A stretch of DNA of 64,000 nucleotides from an uncultured Gemmatimonadota bacterium (GCA_964576115.1 CAZNUA010000014.1:1-64000); one strand, 5' to 3'. Counted from the stretch's first letter, positions 17,512 through 56,782 are shown. The notes: generated by a model not told the origin, from the letters alone. Translations and numbers: made by a program.

Positions 17512-19191
17512 TCAGGTCCAGCTGCGCCCCCCCTTGCGGGTGCCGCACAGGCTGACCCGGATCCCCAGGGCTTCGGCCATGGCGGCCCGGGTCAGCAGAG
17601 CCCGGTCGGCCGCCGCGGCATCGGAGGCGTACACACACTGCACGTGATTGGCCTTGTGCCGGGCCATCATCTGATCGCGGGTCACCCCGTAGAGCACGGC
17701 GTGCATGATCGGCCACTGCGGAGTGGTCGACTGCCACCGCCGTTCGGTTTCCTTTGCCGGCAGGTCGATCGCCCTGCCCCGCCCGATATCCATATGCAGC
17801 CGGTCCCGCTCGACGAAGATGCGCGACCAGATGATCTCGCCGGGTTTGCTCACCCCCTTGATGGTGCTCCCCCCCAGCCGGAAGTACATCGGAGGCTGGC
17901 GCTCTCCCGTCGCACCGGCCCAGCCGTCGGCGAAGTGGGCCGGCGGAACCGCCCCGCTGATCTCGAAGACCCAGACATACTCGTCGGTCGTGCCCGAGGC
18001 GTCATGGTCGGCCCAGCGCACGTCGTGCAGGGTGTTCTCGACCGGTTGGCCCAGAGCGGTGTGCACCCGGTTGATCAGCAGGGCGTCGAGCCCGGCGCAC
18101 TCGTCCACCTCGTTGAAATGGGGCAGCGGCCGGTCCTTGTAAAGGATGCGGCCGCGGGCGTCCTCGACCGGAGGACGGTCGGAGTTGTTGAGCATTCCCT
18201 CGACGAGGTCGGAAGCCGGCAGGGTGTCCTTGAGACCCTGCTGGTACTGAATCCCTATCAGATCGCAGCCGAACTCATGAGCGATCCGCACCGCTGCCAC
18301 GTACATCCGGCACTGCTCGAGTACCTGATCCCTGGTGAGATCGGTCTCCGGGTTTTTACCGAATCGGAACTTCATCCCGGCCCGCCGCAGCCAGCGATAG
18401 ACCTCTTCGGCCTCCTTCTTCGTCACCTGCGAGGCGGCAAAAACCAGGGCCGACTGGCTGAGCCGTTCCTTGAACACCCCGGTCACATTGAGCAGGTGGT
18501 CGGGGATGATGGCGTTGAACATGCCCATGCAGCCCTCGTCGAAGACCCCCATGATGGCCTTCCCTCGCTGCAGGTCGGCGGCCAGATTACCCCCCAGGCG
18601 TCGGGCTCTCGCCGGCACCTCGATCTGCCGCAGGGGGGTGACATGATCGGCGCGATGGAGCACCCGCCCCCGTTCGAGCCAGCGCTGCAGCTTGTTGCGG
18701 AAGGCCGGGGCGGCGAAATCCTCGGCCCAGAGGGTGGAGTATTTCACCCCGGCCTTGGAGAGCGAACCGTTGAGGTTGAGCATTCCCACCAGTCCGGGCC
18801 ACTGTCCCGACCAGTTGGCTACGGTCAGGATCGGACCCCGGTGGGTCGTCAGACCGGGCAGAACGTGGTGGGAATACTGCCAGACCGCCTCGGCCACGAT
18901 CAGCGGCGCCTCGGGATCGAGACCGCGGAAGACTTCCATGCCTTCGTGCTGCGAACCGATGAAGCCGTGCCGGCGCGAGCGGCGGTAGGGATGGGCCCGG
19001 ACGATCTCGTACCCGAGTTCGGCCGCCGCCTTCGTGAGCTCGCGCTCCATATCCCTCTGGGCCGGCCAGCAGACCCGGTTGGCCGATTCGCGCAGATCGC
19101 CGCTGGCCACGAGCAGGACCTGCTTGTTTTTCGTCGAGGTCGGCTTACCGGTAGCCTTCGATTTCCGTATCGACGTCCTCTTCTTCGGCAT
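17512..19191 (-). CDS. L-fucose/L-arabinose isomerase-family protein
   Basis: [34 protein letters not shown] motifs typical of FucI-like proteins; last gene of the sugar ABC operon. Confidence 0.75.
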
Positions 19192-19203
19192 GATCGACTC
19201 CCG

Positions 19204-20415
19204 TCATCCGGTTGAGGTGTCCGGTACCTTTTCAGTATCACCCTCCGGCTCCGATCCGGCAACCGGCCGGTCGGCCCGGCGGTGCCGGAACTGGTCGAGA
19301 GCCACCGCCGCGATGATGATCGCGCCGGTGACGATTTCCTGGACCCAGTTCTCGAGCCCGAGCCGGGTACAGCCGTTGTCCACCACGGTCATGATCAGGG
19401 CCCCCACCAGCGTGCCCCGGATCGACCCCTCTCCCCCCGAGAGACTGGCCCCGCCGATCACCACCGCCGCGATGACCCGCAGTTCGTAGCCCTCGGCCGT
19501 GGTGGGATCGCCCATCGAGAGATAGGCGAACTGCAGCAGGGCGGCCACGCCGGCGCAGCCGATCCCGAGGATATAGACCAGCATTTTGGTCCGGTCGATC
19601 CGCACTCCGCAGAGCCGGGCCGTGAGTTCGTTCGAGCCGATGGCGTAGATGTGCCGGCCCAGCCGGGTGTACCGCAGCAGGCCCGCCATCAGGAGGGCCA
19701 GCAGGAGCAGGATCCAGACCCCCGGGGCCACGATCGCCCCGAGCCCCCCGGTGGTGTTGGTCATCAGGTCGGTCAGCCAGGCGGCCGAGTCGGGATAGAC
19801 CGGCTGGTTGTTGCCCAATCCCTTGGCCAGCCCGCGCAGTCCCCCCCACATGCCCAGGGTCACGATAAAGGGTGCGATCGGCACCCGCCCGATCAGGGTT
19901 TCGTTCAGGGTCAGGACAGCCGCGGTTCCCGCCGCTCCGGCGAGCAGGGCCGGTATGAGGCCGAGCGGCCCGGTCGTCCAGAGCACGATCAGTCCGCCGA
20001 CCGTCAGGGCCGCCACCCGCCCCACGTGCCCGACGACCATCGCCCCGACCGCCGCACCGCAGAGCATGCCGGCCGCCACGCCCCCGACCGCAGCCGACAG
20101 GGGTGGGATCCCGGCCTTGAGGAGCAGGGCGATGACGACCGTTCCCAGGGCGATGGTCGAACCGACCGAAAGATCGATCCCCCCGGCGATGATGATGAGG
20201 GTGGCGCCGAGAGCCGCCGTACCGACCACCGCCGTCTGCAGCAGCATCAGACGCTGGTTATCCCAGCGCATGAAATCGGCCCCCATCAGCACCGCGAACA
20301 GGCCCCAGACGAAGATCAGCCCGATCAGGGGGCCGAGCTGCCCGAGCAGCCGGCTCCCGACCTCCCTGGCCCGCTCCGCCCCCGCCCCGTTCGTCAGTTC
20401 CTTCACCCGGTTCAT
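19204..20415 (-). CDS. Monosaccharide ABC transporter permease (RbsC-like)
   Basis: GGIDLSVGS, PFIVTLG, GRHIYAIGSN, IAAVVIGGASLSGGEGS. Confidence 0.93.
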   Translation of the reverse strand: MNRVKELTNGAGAERAREVGSRLLGQLGPLIGLIFVWGLFAVLMGADFMRWDNQRLMLLQTAVVGTAALGATLIIIAGGIDLSVGSTIALGTVVIALLLKAGIPPLSAAVGGVAAGMLCGAAVGAMVVGHVGRVAALTVGGLIVLWTTGPLGLIPALLAGAAGTAAVLTLNETLIGRVPIAPFIVTLGMWGGLRGLAKGLGNNQPVYPDSAAWLTDLMTNTTGGLGAIVAPGVWILLLLALLMAGLLRYTRLGRHIYAIGSNELTARLCGVRIDRTKMLVYILGIGCAGVAALLQFAYLSMGDPTTAEGYELRVIAAVVIGGASLSGGEGSIRGTLVGALIMTVVDNGCTRLGLENWVQEIVTGAIIIAAVALDQFRHRRADRPVAGSEPEGDTEKVPDTSTG

Positions 20416-21980
20416 GCGGCGGCTCCCGTTCCGGTGGCTTCGAGCATCAGCGTGTGTTCGTCGAATTCGGCGGCCGGACGGGGCCGGCCGAGGCGGCCGC
20501 GCCGCATGACCGCGATCCGGTCGCAGATGCCCAGCAGTTCGGGCAGGTAGCTCGAGACCATGACGATGGCCCGGGGTGCTGTGCCGGTATCGGGGTCACC
20601 GCCGGCCAGCAGATCGATCAGCCGGTAGATGAGCGCTTTCGAACCCACATCGATCCCTCGGGTGGGTTCGTCGAGCAGGAGCACCTCGCACTCGGCGTGC
20701 AGCAGTCGCGCCAGGGCGACCTTCTGCTGGTTGCCCCCCGAGAGCGAATTCACCCGCTGACGGGACGAGGTGCAGCGGATCGGCAGGCGTTCGATCCAGG
20801 GTCGGGCGGCCCGGTCCAGACCGGAGGGCGTCACCAGTCCCCCGGGGCCCAGGCCCGCCAGGTGCGGCAGAACCAGATTGTCGGCCAGACTCAGGCCGAC
20901 CGCCAGACCCTCCCGGGCCCGGTCCTCGCTCACCATGCCGGCGCCCGAGCGCCACCTCTCGGGCGGTCCGCCCCCTACCGCGTACCCGACCCGTACGTCC
21001 CCGCGACGGACCGGATCGAGCCCGAAGACCGCCCGGAGCAGTTCGGTGCGCCCCGAACCCACCAGCCCGGCGATTCCCAGCACTTCGCCGCGGTGCAGGT
21101 CGAAGGAGACTCCACGGGGCAGAACGTCGCCTTGCAGGTCACGCACCGTCAGCAGGACCTCGCCGGGTTCGCGCCGGGAGTGCGGATAGAGTTCGGCGAT
21201 CTCGCGTCCCACCATGAGGGCGACGATCTCGTCCAGGGGAGTGCGGGCCGGCTCCCCCCGCCCCGTCACCAGTCCGTCGCGCAGAACCGTGAACCTGTCA
21301 CCGATCTCCTGTACTTCTTCGAGCACGTGCGAAATGTAGACGACCGCGATCCCCTCGGCACGTAGGCGGCGGATGAGTCCGAAGAGACGGTCGATGTCGG
21401 TCCGGGCCAGGCTCGAGGTGGGCTCGTCCAGGACCAGCACCCGGCAGCCGGTCGCCACCGCCCGGGCGATTTCGACCAGCTGCTGTTCGGCGGCCGAGAG
21501 CCTGCCGACCGGCGCCTCGAGATCCAGGTCGGGCCGTCCCACCCGTTCCAGCGCTCCGGCCCCCCGGGCGCGCATCTCGCGCCGGCGCACGAAGGGCCCC
21601 GTGACCGGTTCCCGGCCCAGAACGATGTTCTCGGCCACGGTCAGGTGCGGAGCCAGCGAGAGTTCCTGGTAGATCATCGCCACACCGGCCGCCCGACCGT
21701 CGGCGGGAGAACGGGGCTCGTAGGTCCGGCCGTCGAGCGCCATCGAGCCGGCATCGGGTTCGAGCGCTCCGGAGAGGATTTTCATCAGGGTACTTTTACC
21801 GGCCCCGTTCTCCCCGATCAGAGCGTGTACCTCGCCCGGCTCAACGCTCAGATCGACCCCGGCCAGGGCCACGGTGGCGCCGAAACGGCGGTGGATGTTC
21901 TCCATCCGGAGCCGGGCAGGTGCAGGGGAAGCGGCGGAGAGAGCGGCAGGGGTACCGACCGTGGCGGAGGGAGGCGACAC
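20412..21980 (-). CDS. Monosaccharide ABC transporter ATP-binding protein (RbsA-like, two ABC domains)
   Basis: GENGAGKST, LDEPTS, LSGGNQQK, LDEPTRGIDVG; start (GTG 21980) uncertain. Confidence 0.93.
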   Translation of the reverse strand: MSPPSATVGTPAALSAASPAPARLRMENIHRRFGATVALAGVDLSVEPGEVHALIGENGAGKSTLMKILSGALEPDAGSMALDGRTYEPRSPADGRAAGVAMIYQELSLAPHLTVAENIVLGREPVTGPFVRRREMRARGAGALERVGRPDLDLEAPVGRLSAAEQQLVEIARAVATGCRVLVLDEPTSSLARTDIDRLFGLIRRLRAEGIAVVYISHVLEEVQEIGDRFTVLRDGLVTGRGEPARTPLDEIVALMVGREIAELYPHSRREPGEVLLTVRDLQGDVLPRGVSFDLHRGEVLGIAGLVGSGRTELLRAVFGLDPVRRGDVRVGYAVGGGPPERWRSGAGMVSEDRAREGLAVGLSLADNLVLPHLAGLGPGGLVTPSGLDRAARPWIERLPIRCTSSRQRVNSLSGGNQQKVALARLLHAECEVLLLDEPTRGIDVGSKALIYRLIDLLAGGDPDTGTAPRAIVMVSSYLPELLGICDRIAVMRRGRLGRPRPAAEFDEHTLMLEATGTGAAA

Positions 21981-21981
21981 G

Positions 21982-23118
21982 TCAGCCGCCCGGTGCGATG
22001 AGAGCCCTGATGTCGGGCTCGTCCAGATTCTCGCGCGTAATGAGCGCCACCCCGGTGTCCACCACCGGCGGGACTTCCTGCCCGCGCAGGTGACGCACCA
22101 GGGTCGCGACAGCCTCATAACCCATGCGGTCGGGATTCTGGACCACCAGGGCGTCGATCTCGCCCGCTTCGAGCGCCTCGACGAGCGGCGGGGAGGCGTC
22201 GAAACCCACGAAGCGGATCTGTCCGGCCAGGCCTTCCTGCCGCAGGGCCAGCAGCATGCCGTAGGTGGAGGGTTCGTTGGAGCAGAAAATGCCGTCGGCC
22301 GAACGAACCCGATCGAACATGTTCAGGGCCTGCGTCTTGGCCTCACCGGCCGTGGGTCCGGCATAGCGGTTCTCGACCAGCACCTCGATCCCTCCCCCAC
22401 CCCGCACGGCGTCCAGAAAGCCCTCCTCGCGCGCCGTGGTGCTGGCCGAGCCGACCAGGTAACGCAGCAGCACCACCCGGCCCCGGCCGTCGAGCAGTTC
22501 GGCCAGGTGCTCGCCGCCCAGACGTCCCCCGCGGGCGTTGTCGGTAGCCACGAAACTGACGAAATCCTCGCCCGGCTCACCCTCGAGAGCGGAATCCATG
22601 ATCACCACCGGGATCCCCCGCTCGGCCGCCTGCCGGACCGGGGCCACCAGGGCGTGCAGGTCGAGCGGAGCCAGGACGATACCATCGACATTCTGGGAGA
22701 TGAACTGCTGGACGACCTGGATCTGCTGGGCCCGGTCGTTCTCCTTCAGGGGCCCCTTCCAGATGATCTCGACCACCTGTTCATCACCGGCCCGCCTGGC
22801 GCCGGCCTCGACCGACTTCCAGAAGACGTGGGTCGTGCCCTTGGGGATGACAGCCAGGGTGTAGGCGGTCTCTGAAACGGTTTGGCCGCCGGCCTCGGCA
22901 CCGCCTCCGCTTTCCCTGCCGCCGCTCCCGCTGCAGGCGGCGGCGAGCAGAATAGCCGCACCGACCAGACAGAAGCCCACTGTACGCCCGACCCGCCGGC
23001 CGTCCGGGTTCGCTGACTGACGTTTCAGGGGATATCGTTCACGCAGGGGGGTGTACTGGGCCACGGTGCACTCCACGGCCGGGATCGGGCTCACCACCCG
23101 ATGGTTGATGTCCGCCAC
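21982..23118 (-). CDS. Sugar ABC transporter substrate-binding lipoprotein (RbsB-like)
   Basis: Lipobox LAAAC; VIPKGTTHVFWKSV, VATDN, VGFD, QNPDRMGY; start uncertain. Confidence 0.9.
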   Translation of the reverse strand: MADINHRVVSPIPAVECTVAQYTPLRERYPLKRQSANPDGRRVGRTVGFCLVGAAILLAAACSGSGGRESGGGAEAGGQTVSETAYTLAVIPKGTTHVFWKSVEAGARRAGDEQVVEIIWKGPLKENDRAQQIQVVQQFISQNVDGIVLAPLDLHALVAPVRQAAERGIPVVIMDSALEGEPGEDFVSFVATDNARGGRLGGEHLAELLDGRGRVVLLRYLVGSASTTAREEGFLDAVRGGGGIEVLVENRYAGPTAGEAKTQALNMFDRVRSADGIFCSNEPSTYGMLLALRQEGLAGQIRFVGFDASPPLVEALEAGEIDALVVQNPDRMGYEAVATLVRHLRGQEVPPVVDTGVALITRENLDEPDIRALIAPGG

Positions 23119-23195
23119 CGCAACCGGTGGCTATCCTCCCTTCTTGTTATACCCGTCCGCGGGTGAGGCTCCAACCATTCCTTTTCCGTGCTCGA

Positions 23196-24812: not shown

Positions 24813-24892
24813 GTCGGATACCCTTTCACACTGATGGTGACGGTCTTTCCTCAAATATTTATCTAAGTTACTTAGTATACAGACGTTCCCTT

Positions 24893-25018
24893 CCGGAGGT
24901 TTCATGATCTTCACCGGAGATTTCACGATCTCCGCTTTTCGAAGCACCGCGGGCACTCTCCTGCAGGTAGCGGGTTGACGGTCTCTTCCTTGACGAAAAC
25001 CACAAATTCGGTCAAAAT
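24893..25018. promoter_or_regulatory. Divergent promoter region with 18-bp direct repeat and TTGAC-N16-GTCAA inverted repeat
   Basis: CCGGAGGTTTCATGATCT (24893) and CCGGAGATTTCACGATCT (24914), 21-bp period; TTGACG at 24990 is -35-like, with CAAAAT 17 bp later. Confidence 0.45.
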
Positions 25019-25069
25019 ACAACACTATCAGACATCGGGATTCGTGCCGACCATGAGGAAAGGTCTCGT

Positions 25070-26464: not shown

Positions 26465-28204
26465 GTGACCGACGCCTCCTTGAAGAACTGGATCGCTGGC
26501 CGTGCCCCTCTGCCCCCCGACTCGCACTGCTGGCCGCTCTACGGCGCCGGGTTCGAGAACCTGGGCCGGGAGGGGCATCCGCTCGTCCGCCCCCGGCCCG
26601 AGCCCGGTCCGGAGCAGCTGCTGGTCCGGCACGATGCCTGCGGGCTCTGTTTTTCGGACATCAAGGTCATCCGGGCCGGTCCCGACCACCCCCGGATCTA
26701 CCGCGACATGCAGAGTGACCCGGTCGTGCTCGGCCACGAGGTCAGCCTGACGGTAGTGGGGGTCGGCCCGGGGCTGGAGGAGCGCTACCGGATCGGCGAC
26801 CGCTTCACCCTGCAGGCCGACATCTTCGTGCACGGGGTCGGCTACGCCTACGGCTACGAACTGCAGGGCGGTCTCTCGCAATACGCGATTCTCGACGACC
26901 GCGTTCTCAACGGCGACGACGGCTGTTACCTGCTGCCGCTGCAGGCCGAAACGGGCTACGCCCAGGCCGCGCTCATCGAACCGTGGGCCTGCGTCATCGC
27001 CGCCTACGGTCTGCGTTACAGGACCGGGCTGAAGGCGGGCGGCACGACCTGGATCCATGGCACCGACCGGGCCCGTGGGAGCGGGTACGAGATCTCGCGC
27101 GGTTTCGACCGCGCCTCGGCCCCGGCCCGGCTCCTGCTCACCGACGTTCCGGCCGGCTTCACCGAGAGTCTGCGAACCCGCGCCGCCGAACTCGGAATCG
27201 AAGTCGTTACGACCGACGAAGAACCGGTCGTGGCCCACGAGAGCGTGGACGATCTTGTCCTGCTCGGTGCCGATGAAGATCTGATCGAAGCTCTCAGTCC
27301 CGCCCTGGCCCACGGCGGTATCATGGCCGTCGTCGACTCCGAGCCCCTGCTGCGGCCGGTCGACCTCGATATCGGACGCATTCACTATAACCGCTGGCTC
27401 TTCATCGGCGGACCCGGGCCCGACCTGGCCGAGGTCTACGCCGGTCGTCCGGTGCGCTCGGAGCTGCAGCCCGGCGGCCGGGCCCTCTTCGTCGGAGCCG
27501 GAGGGCCGATGGGACGCATGCACGTGCAGCGGGCCCTCTCTCTGCCCGGGGGACCGGCGGTGGTGGTCGCCACCGATGTGAGCGGGGCCCGTCTGGCCGA
27601 GCTGGAACGCTCCTTTACCGCCGAAGCGACAAAACGCGGGGTGACCCTGCTCTGCCTCGATCCGACCGACCGGGCGGAGTATGAGGCCGGTCTGGAACGG
27701 GCCCTGCAGGTGTCCGGTCCGGGAACCTCGGGTTTCGACGACATCATCGTACTGGCCCCGATCCCCGGCCTGATCGAAGAAGCGTCCTTCCTGCTCGCTC
27801 CCGGCGGGGTAATGAACGTCTTTGCCGGTCTGGCCCGGGGGACGACCGCCGCCATCGATCTGAGCGAGGCCTGGCTGCGGGGCACCCGTATCATCGGCCA
27901 TTCGGCCTCGACCATCGCCGACATGCGCCTGATGCTCGAGCGCACCGAAGCCGGCGAGCTGGCGCCGGAAAGAGCGGTGGCGGCCGTGGGCAGCCTCGAG
28001 GCGGCCCGCGACGGCCTCGAAGCGGTCCGCGACGCCCGCTTTGCGGGCAAAATCGTCATCTACCCCCACATCCGGCCCTTCCCCCTGACCCCCCTGAGCG
28101 AGCTGGCCGACAGCCTGCCCGAGGTCCACGCCCTGCTGCGCGAGGGACGGGAATGGACGGCGGCGGCCGAACGGGAATTCCTGAAACGGATGCTGCCCGG
28201 ATGA
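26465..28204 (+). CDS. Zn-dependent MDR oxidoreductase, L-sorbose-1-phosphate reductase (SorE)-like, extended
   Basis: CGLCFSD, LGHE, GGLSQY, EPWACVI, GAGGPMG; longer than a typical MDR, with an apparent extra Rossmann-like segment. Confidence 0.75.
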   Translation: MTDASLKNWIAGRAPLPPDSHCWPLYGAGFENLGREGHPLVRPRPEPGPEQLLVRHDACGLCFSDIKVIRAGPDHPRIYRDMQSDPVVLGHEVSLTVVGVGPGLEERYRIGDRFTLQADIFVHGVGYAYGYELQGGLSQYAILDDRVLNGDDGCYLLPLQAETGYAQAALIEPWACVIAAYGLRYRTGLKAGGTTWIHGTDRARGSGYEISRGFDRASAPARLLLTDVPAGFTESLRTRAAELGIEVVTTDEEPVVAHESVDDLVLLGADEDLIEALSPALAHGGIMAVVDSEPLLRPVDLDIGRIHYNRWLFIGGPGPDLAEVYAGRPVRSELQPGGRALFVGAGGPMGRMHVQRALSLPGGPAVVVATDVSGARLAELERSFTAEATKRGVTLLCLDPTDRAEYEAGLERALQVSGPGTSGFDDIIVLAPIPGLIEEASFLLAPGGVMNVFAGLARGTTAAIDLSEAWLRGTRIIGHSASTIADMRLMLERTEAGELAPERAVAAVGSLEAARDGLEAVRDARFAGKIVIYPHIRPFPLTPLSELADSLPEVHALLREGREWTAAAEREFLKRMLPG

Positions 28205-28243
28205 CCGGCACGATCTGTACCGGACCGCGCTGAAGGAGAAGGC

Positions 28244-29068
28244 ATGAACGACACCGACATGTCGCCGCCAGAGACTGGCGGATCAGAGCCCGCCGGGCGG
28301 GTTGCGCTCGTCACCGGCGCCGCCCAGGGGCTCGGCGAGGCGATCGCCCGGCACCTGGCCGGTGAGGGATGGGCCGTGGCTGCTGCCGATCTGAATGCCG
28401 CGGGGGCCGAACGGGTCGCCGCCGGGATCAGAGACGCAACCGGCCTGCCGGCGAGTGGAATCGAAGTGGACGTGACCGACGAAACCGGAGTCGAGGCTAT
28501 GATCCAACGCACCGTGACCGAACTCGGCGCCCTCGACCTGCTGGTTTCGAACGCCGGCATCCTCATCGCCGGTCCGGTCGAGGAATTCGCAGCCGACGAG
28601 TGGCGGGCGGTCATGGAGGTCAACCTCTTCGGGTATTTTCTCTGCGCCCGGGCCGCGGCGCGGGTCATGATCGAACGGGGGGGCGGGGTGATCGTCCAGG
28701 TCAACTCCAAGTCGGGCAAGAAGGGCAGTTATCGCAACTCGGCCTATGCCGCCTCGAAGTTCGGCGGTATCGGGCTGACCCAGAGCCTGGCCCTGGAACT
28801 GGCCGAGTACGGTATCCGGGTCAATGCCGTCTGCCCCGGCAACCTGCTCGATTCCCCCCTCTGGACCGACTCGCTCTACGCCCAGTACGCCGAACGCTGG
28901 GGCATCAGCGAAGCAGAAGTCAGGGAACGCTACATCGAGCAGGTGCCGCTCAAAAGGGGCTGTACCTACGAGGATGTCTGCCGGGTGATTTCCTTCCTGG
29001 CCTCGGACGCAGCCGCCTACATGACCGGACAGGCCGTCAACGTCACCGGCGGACAGGAGATGCGCTGA
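28244..29068 (+). CDS. srlD: Sorbitol-6-phosphate 2-dehydrogenase-like SDR
   Basis: TGAAQGLG, NAG, NSKSGKKGS..NSAYAASKFGGIGLTQSLALELA, GNLLDSP, NVTGGQ: SrlD-subfamily signature. Confidence 0.82.
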   Translation: MNDTDMSPPETGGSEPAGRVALVTGAAQGLGEAIARHLAGEGWAVAAADLNAAGAERVAAGIRDATGLPASGIEVDVTDETGVEAMIQRTVTELGALDLLVSNAGILIAGPVEEFAADEWRAVMEVNLFGYFLCARAAARVMIERGGGVIVQVNSKSGKKGSYRNSAYAASKFGGIGLTQSLALELAEYGIRVNAVCPGNLLDSPLWTDSLYAQYAERWGISEAEVRERYIEQVPLKRGCTYEDVCRVISFLASDAAAYMTGQAVNVTGGQEMR

Positions 29069-30573
29069 TGAGGGACAACGCGACGACCTACCTCGCCTGC
29101 GATCTGGGGGCCGAGAGCGGACGGGTGGTGGCCGGCACCATCGCCGGGGGCCGGCTCGAGCTGACCGAAATGCACCGTTTCGCCAACGGCCCGATCGAGC
29201 AGGATGGGAGCCTGCGCTGGCACGTCGAAGAGATCTGGCGCCAGATCCAGACCGGCCTGCGCTCGGCGGCCGAACGCTTCGGTGACCGTCTGGCCGGGAT
29301 CGGCGTGGATACCTGGGGAGTGGATTTCGGTCTGCTCGACGGCGACAATCGTCTGATCGAGAATCCCTGGCACTACCGCGACGCCCGCACCAACGGCATG
29401 ATGGACGAGGCCTTCAGTATCGTCGAGCGGGCCGATATCTTCGCCCGCACCGGCATCCAGTTCATGCAGCTCAATACCCTCTACCAGCTGCTGGCCATGG
29501 TCTGCGCCGATTCCGGGGCCCTGGCCCGGGCCGAACGCCTGCTCTTCATGCCCGACCTGTTCGCCTTCATGCTCTCGGGCCGGGCCGCGAACGAGTTTAC
29601 CATCGCCACGACCAGCCAGTGCTACGACCCGCGGGCCGGGAGCTGGGCTGCCGGACTGCTCGAAGAGCTGGAGATCCCGACTCATATCTTCGGGCGCATC
29701 GTGGAGCCGGGGACCGACCTGGGCGATCTGCTCCCCGAGGTGGCCGCGGCGACCGGCTGCGGCCCGGTACCGGTGATCGCTCCGGGATCCCACGATACCG
29801 CTTCGGCCGTGGCCGCGGTTCCCTTCGCCTCGGGGGAGGCGATCTACCTCAGCTCGGGCACCTGGTCGCTGATGGGGGTCGAGGTCGCCGAACCGGTCAT
29901 CACCGAACGCAGCCTCGACTACAACCTGACCAACGAGGGGGGTGTCGGAAACCGCTTCCGCCTGCTGAAGAACATCATGGGCCTCTGGCTGGTGCAGGAG
30001 TGCCGGCGGGAATGGGAACGGGAAGGCCGACCGTACACCTACGGCGAACTCACCGACCTGGCGGCTGCGGCCCCGGCCTTCGGTTCCCTCGTCGACCCCG
30101 GCGACGAGCGCTTTCTGCACCCCGGCGACATGCCCGCCCGGATGCGGGCCTTCTGCCGCGAAACGGGTCAGCCCGAACCGGCCGACGAGGGAGCGCTGGT
30201 GCGCTGCGCGCTCGAAAGCCTGGCCTGCGAGTACCGCCGGGTGGCCGGGATCCTGGACGAGCTGACCGGCCGGCGGGCCGACACCATCCACATCATCGGC
30301 GGCGGCTGCCGCAACCGCCTGCTCAACCGGCTCACGGCCGACGCCACCGGACGGCGGGTGCTGGCCGGACCGGTCGAAGCCACCGCCATGGGCAACATCC
30401 TGGTCCAGGCCATGGCCCGCGGCGAGCTGGCCTCGCTGGCCGAGGGGCGCGCGCTCGTCGCCGCCTCGGTCGAACCCGACGCGTACGAGCCGGAGTCCGA
30501 TCCCGCCTGGGACGAAGCCTGCGAACGTTATCTCGAGATCTGCAACCACACCGACTCAGGAGCCGGCGCATGA
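29068..30573 (+). CDS. Rhamnulokinase/fuculokinase-family (FGGY) sugar kinase
   Basis: DLGAESGR, DTWGVDF, YRDART, HDTASAV, SSGTWSL, NEGG, KNIMGLW, GPVEATA; ATG overlaps the srlD stop. Confidence 0.9.
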   Translation: MRDNATTYLACDLGAESGRVVAGTIAGGRLELTEMHRFANGPIEQDGSLRWHVEEIWRQIQTGLRSAAERFGDRLAGIGVDTWGVDFGLLDGDNRLIENPWHYRDARTNGMMDEAFSIVERADIFARTGIQFMQLNTLYQLLAMVCADSGALARAERLLFMPDLFAFMLSGRAANEFTIATTSQCYDPRAGSWAAGLLEELEIPTHIFGRIVEPGTDLGDLLPEVAAATGCGPVPVIAPGSHDTASAVAAVPFASGEAIYLSSGTWSLMGVEVAEPVITERSLDYNLTNEGGVGNRFRLLKNIMGLWLVQECRREWEREGRPYTYGELTDLAAAAPAFGSLVDPGDERFLHPGDMPARMRAFCRETGQPEPADEGALVRCALESLACEYRRVAGILDELTGRRADTIHIIGGGCRNRLLNRLTADATGRRVLAGPVEATAMGNILVQAMARGELASLAEGRALVAASVEPDAYEPESDPAWDEACERYLEICNHTDSGAGA

Positions 30574-32645
30574 CCGCCCGAACCGAACCCCCCGCCCTGA
30601 CCCCGCACGGCCTGGCCCGTGATGAGGCCCTCGAACTGCTGCGGCAGATGTGGGAGATCCGCATGTTCGAAGACCGGGTCTACGATCTGCTGGGACGCAA
30701 TGTCATCAAGGGCGCTTCGCACCTGTACGCCGGCCAGGAAGCGGTGGCGGTCGGCGCCGTCTCGACCCTGCGCTCAGACGACCTGATTACCAGCACTCAT
30801 CGCGGCCACGGTCACTGCCACGCCCGGGGGGCCAGCCTGGTGGCCGATGATGACGAGCGTCGGGAGCACTACAACCGCATGATGGCCGAGCTCTGCGGAC
30901 GCGAAACCGGCTACTGCCGGGGGCGCGGCGGTTCGATGCACATCGCCGACGTCGAGCGCGGCAACCTTGGCGCCACCGGCATCGTGGGGGGCAACATCCC
31001 CGTGGCCACCGGGGCCGGAGTGGCCCAGCAGCAGCTGGGTTCGGACCGGGTAGTGCTCTGCTTTTTCGGCGACGGAGCCACCAGTACCGGAAACTTTCAC
31101 GAGTCGCTGAACCTGGCCGGTCTCTGGGACCTGCCGGTGGTCTACATCATCGAGAACAACCTCTACGGCATGTCGGTTCCCCTCTCGGCCGCCGCGGCGC
31201 AGACGGCTCTGTCCGAGCGCGCCGGGATCTATGCCATGCCGGGCGAGGTCGTCGACGGCATGGACGTGCTGGGGGTGCGGGCCGCCGTGGACCGAGCGGT
31301 ACAACGGGCCCGCTCGGGCCAGGGACCGACCCTGATCGAAGCCCGCACCTACCGCTGGTACGGCCACTCCCGCTCCGACCCGCGCGCCTACCGCACCCGG
31401 GAAGAGGAAGCCGAATGGAAGGCCCGCGACCCGATCCCGGCCTTTGCGGCCTGGCTGGTCGAAAACGACGTCGCCGGAACCGAAGAGCTCGATGCCCTCG
31501 AAGCCCGCTGCGAGGAAGCCATCGAGGAAGCCACTGCCTTTGCCCTCGATTCCCCCCTCCCCTCCCCCGACGAGGTCGCCGCCGATGTCTTCGCCCCCTC
31601 GCCCTGGACCGAGGAGGAGTACGCCATCGAGAAGCGTCTGCGCGAACTCTCCCGCACGGAGGAGTTCGGGGGACGCACCCTGACCTACCGCGACGCCCTG
31701 CAGGAGGCGCTGCGCACCGAGATGGAGCGCGACGAGCGGGTCTTCGTCATGGGCGAGGATGTGGGTCTGTACGGCGGAGCCTACGGGGCCACCAAAGGGC
31801 TGTTCGAGCAGTTCGGTCCCCAGCGTATCAAGGACACCCCGATCTGCGAAGCCACCATCGGGGGTGCGGCGGTCGGGGCCGCCATGGCCGGCACCCGCCC
31901 GGTGGCCGAGATCATGTACGTCGATTTCACCCCCCTGGCCATGGACCAGATCGCCAACCAGGGAGCCAAGAACCGTTACATGTTCGGCGGCAAGACCACT
32001 GTGCCCATGGTGATCCGCACCGAGGGGGGTGCCGGGCGCTGCATCGCCGCCCACCACTCGCAGAGTCTCGAGGCCCTCTGGACCCACTTCCCGGGTATCA
32101 GGGTCGTCATGCCCGCCACCCCCTTCGACGCCAAGGGTCTGCTCATTGCCGCCATCCGGGACGACAATCCGGTCATGTTCATCGAGCACAAGATGCTCTA
32201 CGGCATCGAAGGGCCGGTACCAGAGGAGGAGTACCTGATCCCCTTCGGGGTGGCGGACGTCAAGCGAGCGGGCGAAGACGTGACCGTCATCACCTGGTCG
32301 CGCATGGTCCACCGGGCCCTGGAGGCGGCCGAGCGGCTGGCCGCCGACGGTCTTTCGGTCGAGGTCATCGACCTGCGCACCCTCGATCCGCTCGACATGG
32401 AGACCATCGCAGCTTCGGTCGAAAAAACCGGCCGGGTGGTGGGGGTGACCGAAGCCTGCCGGACCGGCTCCTTTCTCTCCGAGATCTCGGCCCGCATCTC
32501 CGAGGAACTCTTCGATATGCTCGACGCTCCGGTGGTGCGGGTGGCCGCGGCCGACGTACCGGTGCCGATGTCAGAAACCCTGGAGGATGCCGCCATACCC
32601 GGCACCGAGGCCGTCATCGCCGGCATCAGGGAGGTCGTGAGATGA
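30570..32645 (+). CDS. ThDP-dependent dehydrogenase E1, fused alpha+beta (AcoAB/PdhAB-like)
   Basis: GQEA, THRGHGH, GRGGSMH, FGDGA..N, TYRWYGHS (alpha); GEDVG, DTPICE, EIMY, HSQ, IDLRTL (beta). Confidence 0.92.
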   Translation: MTARTEPPALTPHGLARDEALELLRQMWEIRMFEDRVYDLLGRNVIKGASHLYAGQEAVAVGAVSTLRSDDLITSTHRGHGHCHARGASLVADDDERREHYNRMMAELCGRETGYCRGRGGSMHIADVERGNLGATGIVGGNIPVATGAGVAQQQLGSDRVVLCFFGDGATSTGNFHESLNLAGLWDLPVVYIIENNLYGMSVPLSAAAAQTALSERAGIYAMPGEVVDGMDVLGVRAAVDRAVQRARSGQGPTLIEARTYRWYGHSRSDPRAYRTREEEAEWKARDPIPAFAAWLVENDVAGTEELDALEARCEEAIEEATAFALDSPLPSPDEVAADVFAPSPWTEEEYAIEKRLRELSRTEEFGGRTLTYRDALQEALRTEMERDERVFVMGEDVGLYGGAYGATKGLFEQFGPQRIKDTPICEATIGGAAVGAAMAGTRPVAEIMYVDFTPLAMDQIANQGAKNRYMFGGKTTVPMVIRTEGGAGRCIAAHHSQSLEALWTHFPGIRVVMPATPFDAKGLLIAAIRDDNPVMFIEHKMLYGIEGPVPEEEYLIPFGVADVKRAGEDVTVITWSRMVHRALEAAERLAADGLSVEVIDLRTLDPLDMETIAASVEKTGRVVGVTEACRTGSFLSEISARISEELFDMLDAPVVRVAAADVPVPMSETLEDAAIPGTEAVIAGIREVVR

Positions 32646-34092
32646 TCAGCGAAGTCATCATGCCCAAACTGGGTCAGACGATGGAAGAGGGCCGGGTGGT
32701 GGAGTGGTTCAAGGCCGAGGGGGACGAGATCCGGCGGGGCGACATTCTCTACACCCTCGAGTCGGACAAGGCCGCTCTCGATGTCGAGGCCACCGGACGG
32801 GGCTGGCTGCGCCGGATTCTGGTCGCCGAAGACGAAGTCGTACCGGTCCTGACCGTGGTGGCCCTGATCACCACCGAGCCCGACGAGCCGATCGACGACT
32901 GGCGCCCGGTGGTACCGGNNNNNNNNNNNNNNNNNNNNNNNNNNNNNNNNNNNNNNNNNNNNNNNNNNNNNNNNNNNNNNNNNNNNNNNNNNNNNNNNNN
33001 NNNNNNNNNNNNNNNNNNCTGATCACCACCGAGCCCGACGAGCCGATCGACGACTGGCGCCCGGTGGTACCGGGTGCGTCGACTCCGACCACAGGGGAGC
33101 CGGGTGAGGTGTCCGAAGAACCCGCTCGATCCCCCGAACGCCTCGCCGCTTCCCCCCGGGCCCGCCGCCTGGCCGCCGACCGGGGTGTGGATCTGAAAAC
33201 GGTCGCCGGCACGGGGCCGGGAGGCCGGATCGTCGAGGCCGACGTTCTCGCCGCCGCCGTCTCTGCTGCGTCCGGCCCGACTCCGAACGCCGTGACGGAC
33301 CGAACGGGCCCCGCGACTCCGGGCGACGCCTTTCCCCGGGCCGAGCTGCCGGTGGCCCGGACCGTTCCCCTGACCGGCCGGCGCGGCCTGACCGCCGAGC
33401 GGATGACGCAGAGCGCCCGCACCATCCCGCAGGTGACCCTGACGACCGAAGTGGATGCCGACAACCTGCAGGAGCTGCGCGGTCGACTCTCGGACATGGA
33501 GGCCGGATGGGGTTTCGCCCCCGGCTACGCCGAGCTGATCGGGTACCTCACGGTGCGGGCTCTGCGCGAGCACCCGGAGCTGAACGCCCGTCTGAGCGCC
33601 GACGGCCAGGCGATCGAGATTCTGGCTGACATCAACCTGGGGCTGGCGGTCGACACCGGCCAGGGCCTGCTCGTGCCGGTCGTCACCGGCGCCGACGGAA
33701 TGGACCTGCGCACCTTCACCACCCGCGCCCGCGAACTCATCACCCGGGCCCGCGAGGGCACCGCCCTGCCCGACGATCTGGCCGGGGGCACCTTCACCAT
33801 CACCAGCCTGGGGGCGCTGGGCGTCGACGCTTTCACCCCCCTGATCAATCCCCCCGAGGCGGCCATCCTGGGGCTGGGACGCATCCGGGAGAAACCGGCT
33901 GTCTTCGCCGGCCGGATCACTCCCCGTCCCCTGCTGACCCTGAGCCTGGTCTTCGACCACCGGATCGTCGACGGCGCTCCGGCCGCCCGCTTCCTGCAGC
34001 GACTCGGCGAAATGATCGAGCATCCCGAAGCCGCGATCGCAGACAGCCGCGGGGACGGTCGGGCCACATCGGCCGGGGAGCCGGCATCATGA
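32642..34092 (+). CDS. Dihydrolipoamide acyltransferase E2 (interrupted by assembly gap)
   Basis: Lipoyl domain MPKLGQTMEEG..ESDKA; E3-binding ASPRARRLA..GTGPGGRI; catalytic FDHRIVDGA. The frame change across the gap is explained by a 55-bp duplicated flank. Confidence 0.9.
32919..33018. other. Assembly gap (100 N) flanked by an identical 55-bp sequence
   Basis: 32864-32918 is identical to 33019-33073. Confidence 0.95.
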
Positions 34093-34898
34093 AAAACGGT
34101 ATGCTCCCCGTCGAGCGGCAGCGCGAGATCGTCAGCCGGGTCGAGACCGCCGGCAGCGTGCGGACCGTCGAACTGGCCCGGGCCCTGGAGGTGGCCCAGG
34201 AAACCATTCGCCGCGATCTCGACAAACTGGCGGCCGAAGGCCGGCTGACACGCATTCACGGCGGAGCGCTGAGCCTGGCGAACGTACGCCGGGAAATCCC
34301 CTTCGACGTCCGCGAGGTGGTCAACCTGAAGCAGAAGCGGGCCCTGGCCCGGGCGGCGGCCGGATATGTGCGCGAGGGGGATGTGATCGCTCTGGATGCC
34401 AGTTCGACCGTGCGCGAGCTGGCCCGGCTCATTCCCGACGCCCCTCTGACGGTCGTGACCAATTCGATCGCCGTGGCGACGGTCCTGCTCGACCGTCCCC
34501 AAGTGCGGGTCGTCTCGACCGGCGGCACTCTCGACGGTCCCTCCCTTTCCTATGTCGGCCCCCCGGCCGAGGAGGCTCTGGAGCGCTATGCCATACGGCG
34601 CACCTTCCTGTCGTGCACCGCCATCGATCCCGAGCGGGGCCTGGCCGTCGCCACCGGGGAGCACGCCCGAATCAAGCGCCGTATGATGCAGCTTGCCGAC
34701 GAGGTCATCCTGCTCGTCGACGCCTCGAAGTTCTCGGCTCAGGGGGTGGAGTTCTTTGCCGCTCCCGACGAGGTGGACGTGCTCGTCACCGATACCGGGG
34801 CGCCGGCTGCAGTCGTCAAAGCGCTCAGGAAACTGGGGGTGACGGTTCGTCAGGGTGCTGCAGAGGATGCTGTTCCCGCTCGAACTCCCGGGCCTTGA
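34089..34898 (+). CDS. DeoR/GlpR-family transcriptional regulator
   Basis: ERQREI, ETIRRDL, RIHGGA, LDASST, VTNS, DASKF. Confidence 0.93.
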   Translation: MKNGMLPVERQREIVSRVETAGSVRTVELARALEVAQETIRRDLDKLAAEGRLTRIHGGALSLANVRREIPFDVREVVNLKQKRALARAAAGYVREGDVIALDASSTVRELARLIPDAPLTVVTNSIAVATVLLDRPQVRVVSTGGTLDGPSLSYVGPPAEEALERYAIRRTFLSCTAIDPERGLAVATGEHARIKRRMMQLADEVILLVDASKFSAQGVEFFAAPDEVDVLVTDTGAPAAVVKALRKLGVTVRQGAAEDAVPARTPGP

Positions 34899-56128: not shown

Positions 56129-56141
56129 GGAGGCAACACGT

Positions 56142-56724: not shown

Positions 56725-56782
56725 TACATATCGTCTCGCAGCCCAGAACTGCTACGTTATACCCTGTTGAGAGGATATTCGT

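What the first reader, a model, noticed from the sequence alone, without database searches (positions are those of the whole stretch)
17512..34898. Aldolase-free sugar catabolic locus ending in an acetoin/pyruvate-dehydrogenase-like complex: candidate new deoxy-sugar pathway
Seen: an ABC importer and FucI-like isomerase, plus one tightly coupled operon (several overlapping stop/starts) of PHP-like protein, SorE-like reductase, SrlD, RhaB/FucK-like kinase, fused E1, E2 and DeoR. No class II aldolase and no transketolase are present. Established: fucose and rhamnose go isomerase, kinase, aldolase; SorE plus an SrlD/SorD-type enzyme turn a ketose-1-P into a ketose-6-P via the alditol phosphate; AcoABC cleaves CH3-CO-CHOH-R to acetyl-CoA + aldehyde. 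Inference: a terminal-deoxy ketose-1-P is reduced, then re-oxidised at the other end to a 1-deoxy-2-ketose phosphate. That is a methyl acyloin, which E1/E2 (with a shared E3) could cleave to acetyl-CoA + aldose phosphate, avoiding lactaldehyde. The actual sugar is unknown.
Basis: partly seen in the sequence, partly recalled or inferred. Interest (0 to 1): 0.85.

Follow-up and report, generated by a model that had tools for sequence, protein, structure and literature searches.

The report
Rhamnose-linked sugar operon with acetoin-type complex
A real, widely conserved but uncharacterised sugar-breakdown operon joins a rhamnulose-type kinase, two sugar-phosphate dehydrogenases, a phosphatase-like protein and an acetoin-dehydrogenase-like complex, but it is not aldolase-free, because the aldolase and rhamnose isomerase lie elsewhere in this genome and inside the same locus in relatives.

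Summary
The genes are there, with corrections. A tightly coupled + strand operon (25070-34898) encodes a PHP-fold phosphoesterase, a 579-aa SorE/YggP-like Zn dehydrogenase, an SrlD-like SDR, a RhaB-like kinase, a fused Aco/PDH-type E1, an E2 and DeoR. A divergent ABC importer ends in a distant fucose-isomerase-family gene. The apparent E2 frameshift is a 100-N scaffold gap.

The module is conserved: 269 relatives of the long dehydrogenase were found in species genomes, mostly Anaerolineae. The "aldolase-free" premise fails. This genome has a RhaE-type aldolase gene directly upstream of a bona fide RhaA on contig C37. The closest relative carries RhaE-RhaA in the transporter operon where the window has the isomerase-like gene. 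An aldolase-like gene lies in cis in 25 of 80 homologous loci and in 10 of 14 loci with RhaA.

The end-swap idea survives as the best but unproven model: ketose-1-P to alditol-P to 1-deoxyketose-P, then acyloin cleavage. In its favour, SorE and SrlD are the closest characterised relatives, the genome has a separate complete PDH, and this E1 clade recurs in sugar loci. Confidence about 0.4. The searched literature holds no description of the module.

The parts
17512..19191 (-). Distant L-fucose/L-arabinose-isomerase-family protein (longest ORF, 559 aa), last gene of the transporter operon, 12 nt after the permease stop. Positional association only.
   Evidence: Pfam Fucose_iso_C 27.2 and Fucose_iso_N1 20.7 bits, both below the gathering scores. 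No NCBIfam hit and no PDB sequence hit. Homologues 68-76% identical are named 'fucose isomerase' by NCBI, mostly in Planctomycetota. Present in 5 of 5 family relatives, but in G002 it lies beside a paralogous ABC system on another contig. Near the module in 1 of 80 loci.
19204..20415 (-). ABC sugar permease
   Evidence: BPD_transp_2, 125.8 bits. 87% identical to the permease of L001.
20412..22118 (-). ABC ATPase with two ABC domains (longest ORF; the true start is probably further downstream)
   Evidence: ABC_tran 177.7 bits, 2 stretches. 70% identical to L001.
21982..23118 (-). Periplasmic sugar-binding protein (longest ORF)
   Evidence: Peripla_BP_4 203 bits. Best NCBIfam hits are AlsB 103, RbsB 90.7 and RhaS 71.4 bits, all far below their cut-offs. 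85% identical to L001.
25070..26464 (+). PHP-fold metal phosphoesterase-like protein, first gene of the operon. Substrate unknown.
   Evidence: No Pfam hit at E<=0.001. AF2 mean pLDDT 91.5, pTM 0.89. Foldseek: 2yb1 E 5.7e-10 (TMt 0.69), RNase AM 9etk, 3e0f. H60, H62, E119, H207, D296 and E362 are invariant in 36 sequences. Found in 54 of 80 loci.
26465..28204 (+). 579-aa Zn-dependent MDR dehydrogenase: SorE/YggP-like with an inserted alpha/beta domain of about 150 aa (about residues 187-333)
   Evidence: ADH_N 40.2 bits, ADH_zinc_N weak. Pairwise with Klebsiella sorE: 33% over 334-573 (E 1e-25) and 27% over 50-186 (E 5e-16). AF2 mean pLDDT 85; Foldseek TMt 0.72-0.80 to sorbitol, threonine and butanediol dehydrogenases. 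C62, H91, E92 and E172 invariant in 37 sequences. At least 3236 homologues at E<=1e-20.
28244..29068 (+). SrlD-like short-chain dehydrogenase (sorbitol-6-phosphate dehydrogenase family)
   Evidence: NF009050 357.7 bits, above the cut-off of 307. 5o3z 251 bits against 164 for the next PDB hit. Found in 69 of 80 loci.
29068..30573 (+). FGGY kinase, rhamnulokinase-like
   Evidence: TIGR02627 484.7 bits (cut-off 527.95); fuculokinase 125.9 bits. Its ATG overlaps the SDR stop by 1 nt.
30570..32645 (+). Fused E1 alpha-beta, ThDP-dependent, of the Aco/PDH 'y' type
   Evidence: E1_dh 261 bits, Transket_pyr 150.5, Transketolase_C 134. NF006667 395.1 > 321; TIGR03182 353.4 < 393.85. About 50% identical to split Aco-like E1 pairs on plasmids.
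32642..34092 (+). E2 acyltransferase (lipoyl domain, E3-binding domain, catalytic domain), interrupted by a 100-N scaffold gap at 32919-33018
   Evidence: Biotin_lipoyl 52.5 bits in one frame; E3_binding 56.4 and 2-oxoacid_dh 241 bits in the other. N run and duplicated flanks. The DKA and DHRxxDG motifs are visible in the translations; their meaning is recalled.
34089..34898 (+). DeoR-family regulator, last gene of the operon
   Evidence: HTH_DeoR 56.9 and DeoRC 155.1 bits.

Best explanation
The locus is one half of an L-rhamnose-type (6-deoxy-ketose) catabolic regulon. The isomerase RhaA and a RhaE-type aldolase are encoded on another contig here, and next to the transporter in the closest relative.

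Proposed pathway of the + strand operon:
1. The RhaB-like kinase makes a ketose-1-phosphate.
2. The SorE-like Zn dehydrogenase reduces its C2 keto group to the alditol phosphate.
3. The SrlD-like SDR re-oxidises the penultimate carbon at the far, methyl end. The product is a 1-deoxy-2-ketohexose 6-phosphate, a methyl acyloin.
4. The Aco-like E1/E2 cleaves it to acetyl-CoA plus a tetrose 4-phosphate, borrowing E3 from the PDH operon on C47 or the gene on C12.

This branch runs beside the aldolase, not instead of it. The PHP phosphoesterase probably acts on one of the sugar phosphates; its role is open.

Shown: gene content, family assignments, operon coupling, conservation of the module, and presence of RhaA/RhaE and a separate PDH. 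Inferred: every substrate and every reaction.
For: 1. The closest named relatives of the two dehydrogenases act on sugar phosphates and work as a pair in the sorbose operon.
   - SorE. The sor operon as annotated carries an SDR gene and sorE.
   - SrlD.
2. The kinase scores 484.7 bits on the rhamnulokinase model and 125.9 on the next family. A RhaB-like kinase is present in 12 of 12 further module genomes.
3. The module is syntenic in 80 loci: SDR 69, PHP 54, E1 34, kinase 25, E2 23. Two E1 lineages only 32-35% identical to each other are both linked to PHP-MDR-SDR.
4. Five of 5 fully flanked RhaA loci also carry E1.
5. The genome has a separate complete PDH operon (E1 alpha TIGR03181 458 > 411.35, E1 beta, E2, E3) on C47, so this E3-less set is an extra one.
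6. The nearest E1 relatives (about 50% identity) lie in sugar loci. Agrobacterium and Sinorhizobium: ABC transporter + PfkB/sugar kinase + oxidoreductase + E1/E2/E3 + lipA. Brevibacillus and C. difficile: PTS genes + sugar-binding regulator.
7. A Deinococcus plasmid has SDR-long MDR-FGGY kinase without E1/E2. This fits E1/E2 being an add-on needed only for some substrates.
8. One Anaerolineae genome carries a bona fide RhaEW (641.7 > 567.75), which would dispose of lactaldehyde, and still has the E1/E2-PHP-MDR-SDR module elsewhere.
9. 1-deoxyfructose-6-phosphate is an accepted catabolic intermediate in another pathway (PMC13450708, passage read).
Against: - No enzyme was assayed, and no E1/E2 complex is known to me to cleave a sugar phosphate.
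- By my own working of the Fischer projections, L-rhamnulose or L-fuculose would yield D-threose-4-P or L-erythrose-4-P, not D-erythrose-4-P. A further epimerase or isomerase is needed and none is identified.
- RhaE-like genes co-occur with the module (25 of 80 loci; 10 of 14 RhaA loci), so the canonical cleavage to DHAP + lactaldehyde is available. The module might act downstream of it.
- PHP has no place in the scheme.
- Twelve of 17 fully flanked E1-bearing loci have no kinase within the fetched flanks of up to 10 kb.
- The window SDR is also this genome's best match to the RhaW (lactaldehyde dehydrogenase) half of TIGR02632: 187.2 bits, next 159.9.
- A scan for module-specific basic residues in E1 found no extra phosphate-binding candidates.
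- The binding protein is not RhaS-like (71.4 bits).
Confidence: 0.4

Rival explanations
1. Canonical route plus a lactaldehyde module. RhaA, RhaB and the RhaE-type aldolase give DHAP + L-lactaldehyde. The MDR, SDR and E1/E2 then carry L-lactaldehyde to acetyl-CoA. One sub-route goes via 1,2-propanediol and acetol, with acyloin cleavage to acetyl-CoA + formaldehyde. The other goes via L-lactate and pyruvate, with E1/E2 acting as a dedicated PDH.
For: - The RhaE here and in relatives lacks the RhaW domain that oxidises lactaldehyde in RhaEW organisms (RhaEW function from PMC3870299, abstract and passages read).
- No RhaEW above cut-off in this genome, nor in 5 of 5 genomes with RhaA-ALDO2-module loci.
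- The window SDR is the genome's best RhaW-like match (187.2 bits).
- Aldolase-like genes sit inside the module loci.
- The MDR's top PDB sequence hit is (R,R)-butanediol dehydrogenase, and the E1 is Aco-like.
Against: - The closest characterised relatives, SorE and SrlD, act on phosphorylated hexose derivatives, not on C3 compounds.
- The SDR scores 357.7 bits on SrlD and only 187-189 on the RhaW half, less than on generic SDR families such as 3-hydroxybutyrate dehydrogenase (217 bits).
- A phosphoesterase and, in relatives, DUF89 phosphatase and MtlD-like genes have no role.
- The genome already has a PDH.
- Genome G052 has RhaEW and still keeps the module.
- The acetol route would release formaldehyde.
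Confidence: 0.2
2. Generic ketohexose end-swap with an unrelated acetoin/pyruvate complex. Kinase + SorE-like + SrlD-like convert a non-deoxy ketose into fructose-6-P, as in the sorbose pathway. E1/E2 is an ordinary acetoin or pyruvate dehydrogenase that merely shares the regulon.
For: - The Deinococcus plasmid has SDR-long MDR-FGGY kinase without E1/E2, beside mannose-type genes.
- 46 of 80 loci show no E1 within the fetched flanks.
- The binding protein resembles AlsB and RbsB more than RhaS.
- RhaA is absent from 11 of 12 further module genomes.
Against: - 4-nt start/stop overlaps join kinase, E1, E2 and DeoR.
- Two distant E1 lineages are both recruited next to PHP-MDR-SDR.
- RhaA loci carry E1 in 9 of 14 cases, and in 5 of 5 when fully flanked.
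- The kinase is RhaB-like.
Confidence: 0.15

Closest known systems
L-sorbose operon enzymes SorE (L-sorbose-1-phosphate reductase) and SorD/SrlD-type glucitol-6-phosphate dehydrogenase of Klebsiella and E. coli
   Same: An MDR reductase homologous to SorE over both its domains is paired in one operon with an SDR of the sorbitol-6-P dehydrogenase family. The Klebsiella operon as annotated has an SDR gene, PTS genes and sorE. The logic is the same: ketose-1-P to alditol-P to ketose with the carbonyl at the other end. The reaction scheme is recalled.
   Different: The MDR is 579 aa against 410 aa, with an inserted domain of about 150 aa. The SDR is SrlD-like and only 31% identical to the Klebsiella sor-operon SDR. 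Phosphorylation is by a RhaB-like kinase and ABC import, not by a PTS. PHP and E1/E2 are added. The presumed substrate is a 6-deoxy sugar.
Acetoin dehydrogenase complex AcoABCL
   Same: A heteromeric-type E1 (alpha + beta) about 50% identical to genes annotated acoA / alpha-ketoacid dehydrogenase beta on plasmids, plus an E2 with lipoyl, E3-binding and catalytic domains. Cleavage of a methyl acyloin to acetyl-CoA plus an aldehyde is the proposed chemistry; the Aco reaction is recalled.
   Different: E1 alpha and beta are fused into one 691-aa protein. No E3 lies in the locus. The complex is embedded in a sugar kinase/dehydrogenase operon under DeoR. No characterised AcoA/AcoB sequence was available for a tree, so membership in the Aco clade rests on annotation only.
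Phosphorylated L-rhamnose pathway RhaA-RhaB-RhaD, or RhaEW (Rodionova et al. 2013, PMC3870299)
   Same: RhaA passes its equivalog model (670.1 > 572). A RhaB-like kinase, a RhaE-type aldolase domain, a DeoR-type regulator and a sugar ABC importer are present.
   Different: RhaE stands alone without the RhaW dehydrogenase. RhaA and RhaE lie on another contig. Five extra genes (PHP, MDR, SDR, E1, E2) are co-transcribed with rhaB. The paper's text does not contain the words acetoin or pyruvate dehydrogenase, nor Anaerolinea. Its supplements could not be seen.
1-deoxyfructose-6-phosphate route of 1,5-anhydroglucitol catabolism (YbiW/PflD plus aldolase)
   Same: A 1-deoxy-2-ketohexose 6-phosphate is a catabolic intermediate (PMC13450708, passage read).
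   Different: There it is made by glycyl radical enzymes and split by an aldolase into glyceraldehyde-3-P and hydroxyacetone. Here a ThDP/lipoyl complex is proposed to split it between C2 and C3.

Membership tests
Sorbitol-6-phosphate dehydrogenase (SrlD; NCBIfam NF009050) | Whole-protein score above the curated equivalog cut-off | tested here: met
   357.7 bits against a cut-off of 307. Best PDB relative is SrlD 5o3z, 251 bits over residues 18-273.
Sorbitol-6-phosphate dehydrogenase (SrlD; NCBIfam NF009050) | NAD-dependent oxidation of a hexitol 6-phosphate | not testable with these tools
   Needs an enzyme assay.
L-sorbose-1-phosphate reductase (SorE/YggP) | Homology to SorE over both the catalytic and the nucleotide-binding domain, including the C-terminal tail | tested here: met
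   33% identity over 334-573 (E 1e-25) and 27% over 50-186 (E 5e-16) with the Klebsiella gene annotated sorE. A yggP-annotated E. coli match, other E. coli matches and sorE are among the only 8 plasmid-collection records at E<=1e-15.
L-sorbose-1-phosphate reductase (SorE/YggP) | Same length and domain architecture (about 410 aa) | tested here: not met
   579 aa with an extra alpha/beta domain of about 150 aa between the two MDR domains, conserved in 37 sequences.
Rhamnulokinase (TIGR02627) | Score above the curated cut-off | tested here: not met
   484.7 bits against 527.95. Still by far the best family; the fuculokinase model gives 125.9 bits.
2-oxoacid/acetoin dehydrogenase E1 (heteromeric type) | E1_dh, Transket_pyr and Transketolase_C domains | tested here: met
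   261, 150.5 and 134 bits. Beta-subunit subfamily NF006667 395.1 > 321. Alpha model TIGR03182 353.4 < 393.85.
Acetoin dehydrogenase AcoAB specifically | Clusters with characterised AcoA/AcoB rather than PdhA/PdhB in a tree | not tested
   No characterised Aco sequence was obtainable from the tools. Only annotated relatives at about 50% identity.
E2 dihydrolipoyl acyltransferase | Lipoyl domain, E3-binding domain and catalytic domain | tested here: met
   52.5, 56.4 and 241.2 bits, read in two pieces on either side of the N gap.
PHP phosphoesterase superfamily | Pfam PF02811 match | tested here: not met
   No Pfam family at E<=0.001. One weak NCBIfam N-terminal hit, E 0.001.
PHP phosphoesterase superfamily | PHP fold with conserved His/Asp/Glu metal-ligand candidates | tested here: met
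   Foldseek probability 1.00 to 2yb1, 9etk, 3e0f and 7ug9. H60, H62, E119, H207, D296 and E362 are invariant. Which residues bind metal is inferred.
L-fucose isomerase (FucI) | Pfam Fucose_iso domains above the gathering score | tested here: not met
   27.2 < 29.3 and 20.7 < 28. No NCBIfam hit. Sources name 68-76% identical proteins 'fucose isomerase' or 'L-fucose/L-arabinose isomerase family'.
   An aldolase-like gene in 25 of 80 loci and in 10 of 14 RhaA loci. PF00596 matches in 35 of 35 module genomes. Own genome: RhaE-like next to RhaA on C37.
Canonical phosphorylated L-rhamnose pathway | RhaA isomerase present in the genome | tested here: met
   C37:30829-32106, NF002203 670.1 > 572.
Canonical phosphorylated L-rhamnose pathway | Rhamnulose-1-P aldolase (RhaD or RhaE) present | tested here: inconclusive
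   The C37 protein of 388-409 aa matches RhaEW models over profile positions 32-395 of 657, but at 85-90 bits, far below the whole-protein cut-offs. Aldolase activity is unknown.

The most novel reading that the evidence does not exclude
A lipoamide-dependent, acetoin-dehydrogenase-like complex cleaves a sugar phosphate. L-rhamnulose-1-P is end-swapped by a SorE-like reductase and an SrlD-like dehydrogenase into a 1-deoxy-hexulose-6-P. The short RhaE-like 'ALDO2' protein of relatives acts as an AraD-type 4-epimerase that sets the stereochemistry. E1/E2 then yields acetyl-CoA plus erythrose-4-P. This would be a lactaldehyde-free rhamnose route, widespread in Anaerolineae and present in this small candidate phylum. 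Related E1 clades in rhizobial and Firmicute sugar loci would do analogous cleavages.
Probability: 0.25. Interest if true: 0.85.

Novelty: new variant of a known kind. Interest (0 to 1): 0.6.

Why it matters
The long SorE-like dehydrogenase has at least 3236 homologues at E<=1e-20. With its SrlD-like and PHP partners it forms a conserved module of unknown function in Anaerolineae, a group abundant in sediments, soils and digesters.

If the model is right, 2-oxoacid/acetoin dehydrogenase complexes would gain a new substrate class, sugar phosphates. Deoxy sugars from plant and algal polymers would then enter metabolism as acetyl-CoA plus a C4 phosphate instead of DHAP plus lactaldehyde. That changes carbon and redox budgets in metabolic models.

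If it is wrong, the locus is still a clean case for finding out how bacteria with a RhaE that lacks RhaW dispose of lactaldehyde.

Tried and rejected
1. **Real frameshift or split E2.** Rejected: a 100-N run with duplicated flanks.
2. **The - strand 1013-aa ORF 25088-28129 and other long antisense ORFs.** Treated as shadows of high G+C genes. Clusters c23 and c27 matched the opposite strand of RhaA and E1.
3. **The second class II aldolase of the genome (C87) as the missing aldolase.** Rejected: it is AraD (325.9 > 257) next to ribulokinase.
4. **E1/E2 as the housekeeping PDH.** Unlikely: a full PDH operon lies on C47.
5. **SDR as a split RhaW.** Not supported: 187-189 bits on the RhaW half against 357.7 on SrlD.
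6. **Scan for residues shared by the two module E1 lineages but absent from five non-module E1s.** It gave only K47, M449/Y450 and S634/F635, with no extra Arg/Lys cluster. Inconclusive.
7. **Counting slips that I corrected.**
   - In one search one query (ALDO_L072) was cut in the wrong frame, after I wrongly equated two contigs. Its 2 hits (L065, L072) were dropped, leaving 26 of 80.
   - One search gives 25 of 80 at a stricter threshold.
   - The DUF89 count (63) is inflated by a chimeric query ORF that overlaps the SDR. I use 21 of 80.
   - The first cluster-based aldolase count (23 of 80) missed the L001 form.
8. **Earlier findings of this scan.** Three look-ups returned nothing.
9. **Literature.** Eight searches found no description of this gene set. 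The structure paper on SrlD 5o3z was not in the library, so its phosphate-binding residues could not be checked.
10. **PDB sequence search with the isomerase-like protein.** Nothing.

Full report
**1. What is in the window**

The window is contig C14 of a 3.96-Mb, 144-contig genome, 93.7% complete, with about 65% G+C. Its phylum holds only 10 species genomes in the collection.

On the - strand lies a transporter operon:
- a Peripla_BP_4 binding protein (longest ORF 21982-23118);
- an ATPase with two ABC domains (20412-22118);
- a BPD_transp_2 permease (19204-20415);
- 12 nt further, a 559-aa ORF (17512-19191).

The last ORF's only family signals are Fucose_iso_C (27.2 bits) and Fucose_iso_N1 (20.7 bits). 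Both are below Pfam's gathering scores.

A secreted alpha/beta-hydrolase-TPR gene (23196-24812, -) separates this operon from the + strand operon.

The + strand operon holds:
- a 464-aa protein without a Pfam hit (25070-26464);
- a 579-aa MDR dehydrogenase (26465-28204);
- an SDR (28244-29068);
- an FGGY kinase (29068-30573);
- a fused E1 alpha-beta (30570-32645);
- an E2 (32642-34092);
- a DeoR regulator (34089-34898).

The junctions are an abutment, a 39-nt gap, a 1-nt overlap and three ATGA overlaps.

E2 seems to change frame. In fact a run of exactly 100 N (32919-33018) sits between two copies of the same roughly 55 nt. This is a scaffolding artefact. I analysed E2 as two pieces and joined nothing.

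**2. Family assignments**

- *SDR.* It passes NCBI's sorbitol-6-phosphate dehydrogenase equivalog (357.7 > 307). Its best solved relative is SrlD 5o3z (251 bits; the next hit has 164).
- *Kinase.* It scores 484.7 bits on the rhamnulokinase model (cut-off 527.95) and 125.9 on fuculokinase.
- *Long MDR, named relatives.* It has no named close relatives. At least 3236 homologues reach E<=1e-20, nearly all unnamed. In the plasmid collection only 8 of 72,556 records match at E<=1e-15: a Deinococcus orthologue, E. coli matches of which one is annotated yggP, a Klebsiella sorE and a Photobacterium match.
- *Long MDR, comparison with SorE.* A pairwise comparison with the annotated Klebsiella SorE gives 33% identity over 334-573, including the unusual C-terminal tail, and 27% over 50-186.
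- *Long MDR, fold.* The AF2 model (mean pLDDT 85) has the MDR fold (TMt 0.72-0.80 to sorbitol, threonine and butanediol dehydrogenases). It carries an extra alpha/beta domain of about 150 aa.
- *First gene.* It has a PHP fold. AF2 mean pLDDT is 91.5. Foldseek gives E 6e-10 to 2e-9 to the PHP phosphoesterases 2yb1, 9etk and 3e0f. His, Asp and Glu candidates are invariant in 36 sequences.
- *E1.* It is of the PDH 'y'/Aco type. It is about 50% identical to split E1 pairs on plasmids, some annotated acoA.
- *Other complexes in the genome.* A complete PDH operon with its own E3 lies on C47 (E1 alpha 458 > 411.35). A third E1 lies on C116.

**3. Conservation**

The long MDR has 269 confirmed relatives in one-per-species genomes. 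The 80 best are almost all Anaerolineae and other Chloroflexota, plus two close relatives of this genome.

Within the fetched flanks of up to 10 kb, out of 80 loci (unless stated):

| Gene | Loci of 80 |
|---|---|
| SDR | 69 |
| PHP | 54 |
| E1 | 34 |
| Kinase | 25 |
| RhaE-like class II aldolase | 25 |
| E2 | 23 |
| DeoR | 23 |
| DUF89 phosphatase | 21 |
| MtlD-like | 17 |
| RhaA | 14 |
| URO-D-like | 14 |

Many loci are cut by contig ends. Among the 29 loci with at least 8 kb on both sides the counts are PHP 21, SDR 27, E1 17, E2 14, aldolase-like 11, kinase 7 and RhaA 5.

Two E1 lineages only 32-35% identical to each other are both found next to PHP-MDR-SDR. This argues for a functional link between the complex and the dehydrogenase pair.

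**4. The aldolase question**

- *This genome.* It has two PF00596 matches. One (C87) is AraD next to ribulokinase. The other (C37) is a 388-409-aa protein that matches the aldolase half of the bifunctional RhaEW models (profile positions 32-395 of 657). It lies directly upstream of a RhaA that passes its equivalog model (670.1 > 572).
- *The closest relative.* In L001 (module proteins 65-87% identical) the transporter operon reads sbp-atp-perm-RhaE-RhaA. RhaE-RhaA occupy the place that the isomerase-like gene holds in the window.
- *The isomerase-like gene.* It is conserved in 5 of 5 family relatives. In G002 it sits beside a paralogous ABC system on another contig.
- *RhaA loci.* Of the 14 loci with RhaA, 10 have an aldolase-like gene and 9 have E1. 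Of the 5 fully flanked ones, all have both.
- *Genomes.* All 35 of 35 module genomes examined have at least one PF00596 match.

One caution applies. In genome G052 a short aldolase-like gene (ALDO2) shares a locus with a bona fide RhaEW (641.7 > 567.75), a RhaB-like kinase and a RhaS-like ABC system. That genome's E2-E1-PHP-MDR-SDR-MtlD-like module lies elsewhere. The short form is thus probably not the main aldolase, at least there.

**5. Mechanism**

The closest characterised relatives of both dehydrogenases act on phosphorylated hexose derivatives. In the sorbose operon they work as a pair that moves the carbonyl from C2 to C5 through the alditol phosphate. The operon is as annotated; the reaction scheme is recalled.

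With a RhaB-type kinase and a 6-deoxy substrate, the product would be a 1-deoxy-2-ketohexose 6-phosphate. That is a methyl acyloin, the substrate type of acetoin dehydrogenase E1.

Points in favour:
- The E3-less complex is surplus to a complete PDH.
- Its nearest relatives sit in sugar loci. In Agrobacterium and Sinorhizobium these hold an ABC transporter, a PfkB or sugar kinase, an oxidoreductase, E1/E2/E3 and lipA. In Brevibacillus and C. difficile they hold PTS genes and a sugar-binding regulator.
- A Deinococcus plasmid has SDR-long MDR-FGGY kinase without E1/E2.
- A genome with RhaEW still keeps the module.
- 1-deoxyfructose-6-P is a known intermediate elsewhere (PMC13450708, passage).

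Points against:
- Nothing was assayed.
- By my own stereochemical working, L-rhamnulose gives D-threose-4-P or L-erythrose-4-P, so a further step is needed.
- PHP has no assigned role.
- Most E1-bearing loci lack a kinase in cis: 12 of 17 fully flanked ones.
- The SDR is also the genome's best, though weak, RhaW-like sequence.
- The E1 residue scan showed no phosphate-binding signature.

I put this model at about 0.4, a lactaldehyde-processing role at 0.2, and a generic ketose end-swap with an unrelated Aco/PDH at 0.15. The remainder is unknown.

**6. Novelty**

Eight full-text searches found no description of this gene set. In the 2013 comparative study of rhamnose regulons (PMC3870299) I read the abstract and passages. 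The words acetoin and pyruvate dehydrogenase do not occur in its text, nor does Anaerolinea.

The parts are members of known families. The combination and the proposed substrate of E1/E2 would be new.

**7. Verdict**

The title claim 'aldolase-free' is wrong. The SorE/SrlD end-swap plus acyloin cleavage remains the best available, still unproven, reading of a widespread uncharacterised module.

Noticed in passing
window 1423-1522 and 32919-33018: Two runs of exactly 100 N. The second lies inside E2 and is flanked by two copies of the same roughly 55 nt, so the two scaffolded pieces overlap and the gap is artificial.
   Followed up: yes
window 56001-58000: G+C falls to 0.478 against about 0.60-0.65 around it. 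Only small ORFs (159-193 aa) lie at 56121-58054. Possibly foreign DNA.
   Followed up: no
L084 (Agrobacterium pAt plasmid) and L088 (Sinorhizobium Rm41 accessory plasmid): E1 relatives at about 50% identity sit in operons with a sugar ABC transporter, a PfkB or sugar kinase, a 441-aa NAD(P)H oxidoreductase, E1 alpha, E1 beta, E2, lpdA and lipA, next to a glycerol-3-P dehydrogenase/oxidase and a Zn dehydrogenase. This looks like another sugar-linked lipoyl complex of unknown substrate.
   Followed up: partly
L085 (Brevibacillus laterosporus) and L086 (C. difficile plasmid record): Aco-like E1/E2/E3 operons flanked by PTS IIA/IIB/IIC genes and a gene annotated 'sugar-binding transcriptional regulator'.
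   Followed up: no
L095 (Deinococcus sp. AJ005 plasmid p380k): SDR-long MDR (37.5% identical to the window's)-FGGY kinase-GntR operon. It is divergent from mannose-6-P isomerase, AGE epimerase, ROK and sugar ABC genes. No PHP and no E1/E2.
   Followed up: partly
L093 = G052:C179:27000-46000: DeoR, a bona fide RhaEW (641.7 > 567.75), a RhaB-like kinase, a RhaS-like ABC system and a short RhaE-like 'ALDO2' gene lie together in one locus. The short form therefore coexists with the full aldolase.
   Followed up: partly
L005, L023, L031, L041, L060 and others (Anaerolineae loci): A second context type for the MDR-SDR pair: up to three distant URO-D-like paralogues (clusters c18, UROD, c29), a DUF89/ARMT1-like phosphatase, a second ordinary MDR and ALDO2, without RhaA and mostly without E1/E2.
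   Followed up: partly
window 17512-19191 and its homologues: The isomerase-like protein belongs to a very large family that keeps 68-76% identity across Planctomycetota and this phylum, yet barely touches the Pfam FucI models. Its sugar is unknown.
   Followed up: partly
G000:C116:344-1225: A third E1 alpha-type gene (168.8 bits) lies at a contig end. The 93.7%-complete genome shows only two E2 genes.
   Followed up: no
G000:C37 (L081 13126-14616 and 14876-15892): Downstream of RhaE-RhaA lie an Old-Yellow-Enzyme-like oxidoreductase and a TonB-dependent receptor. Upstream is a 484-aa ORF with no NCBIfam hit.
   Followed up: no
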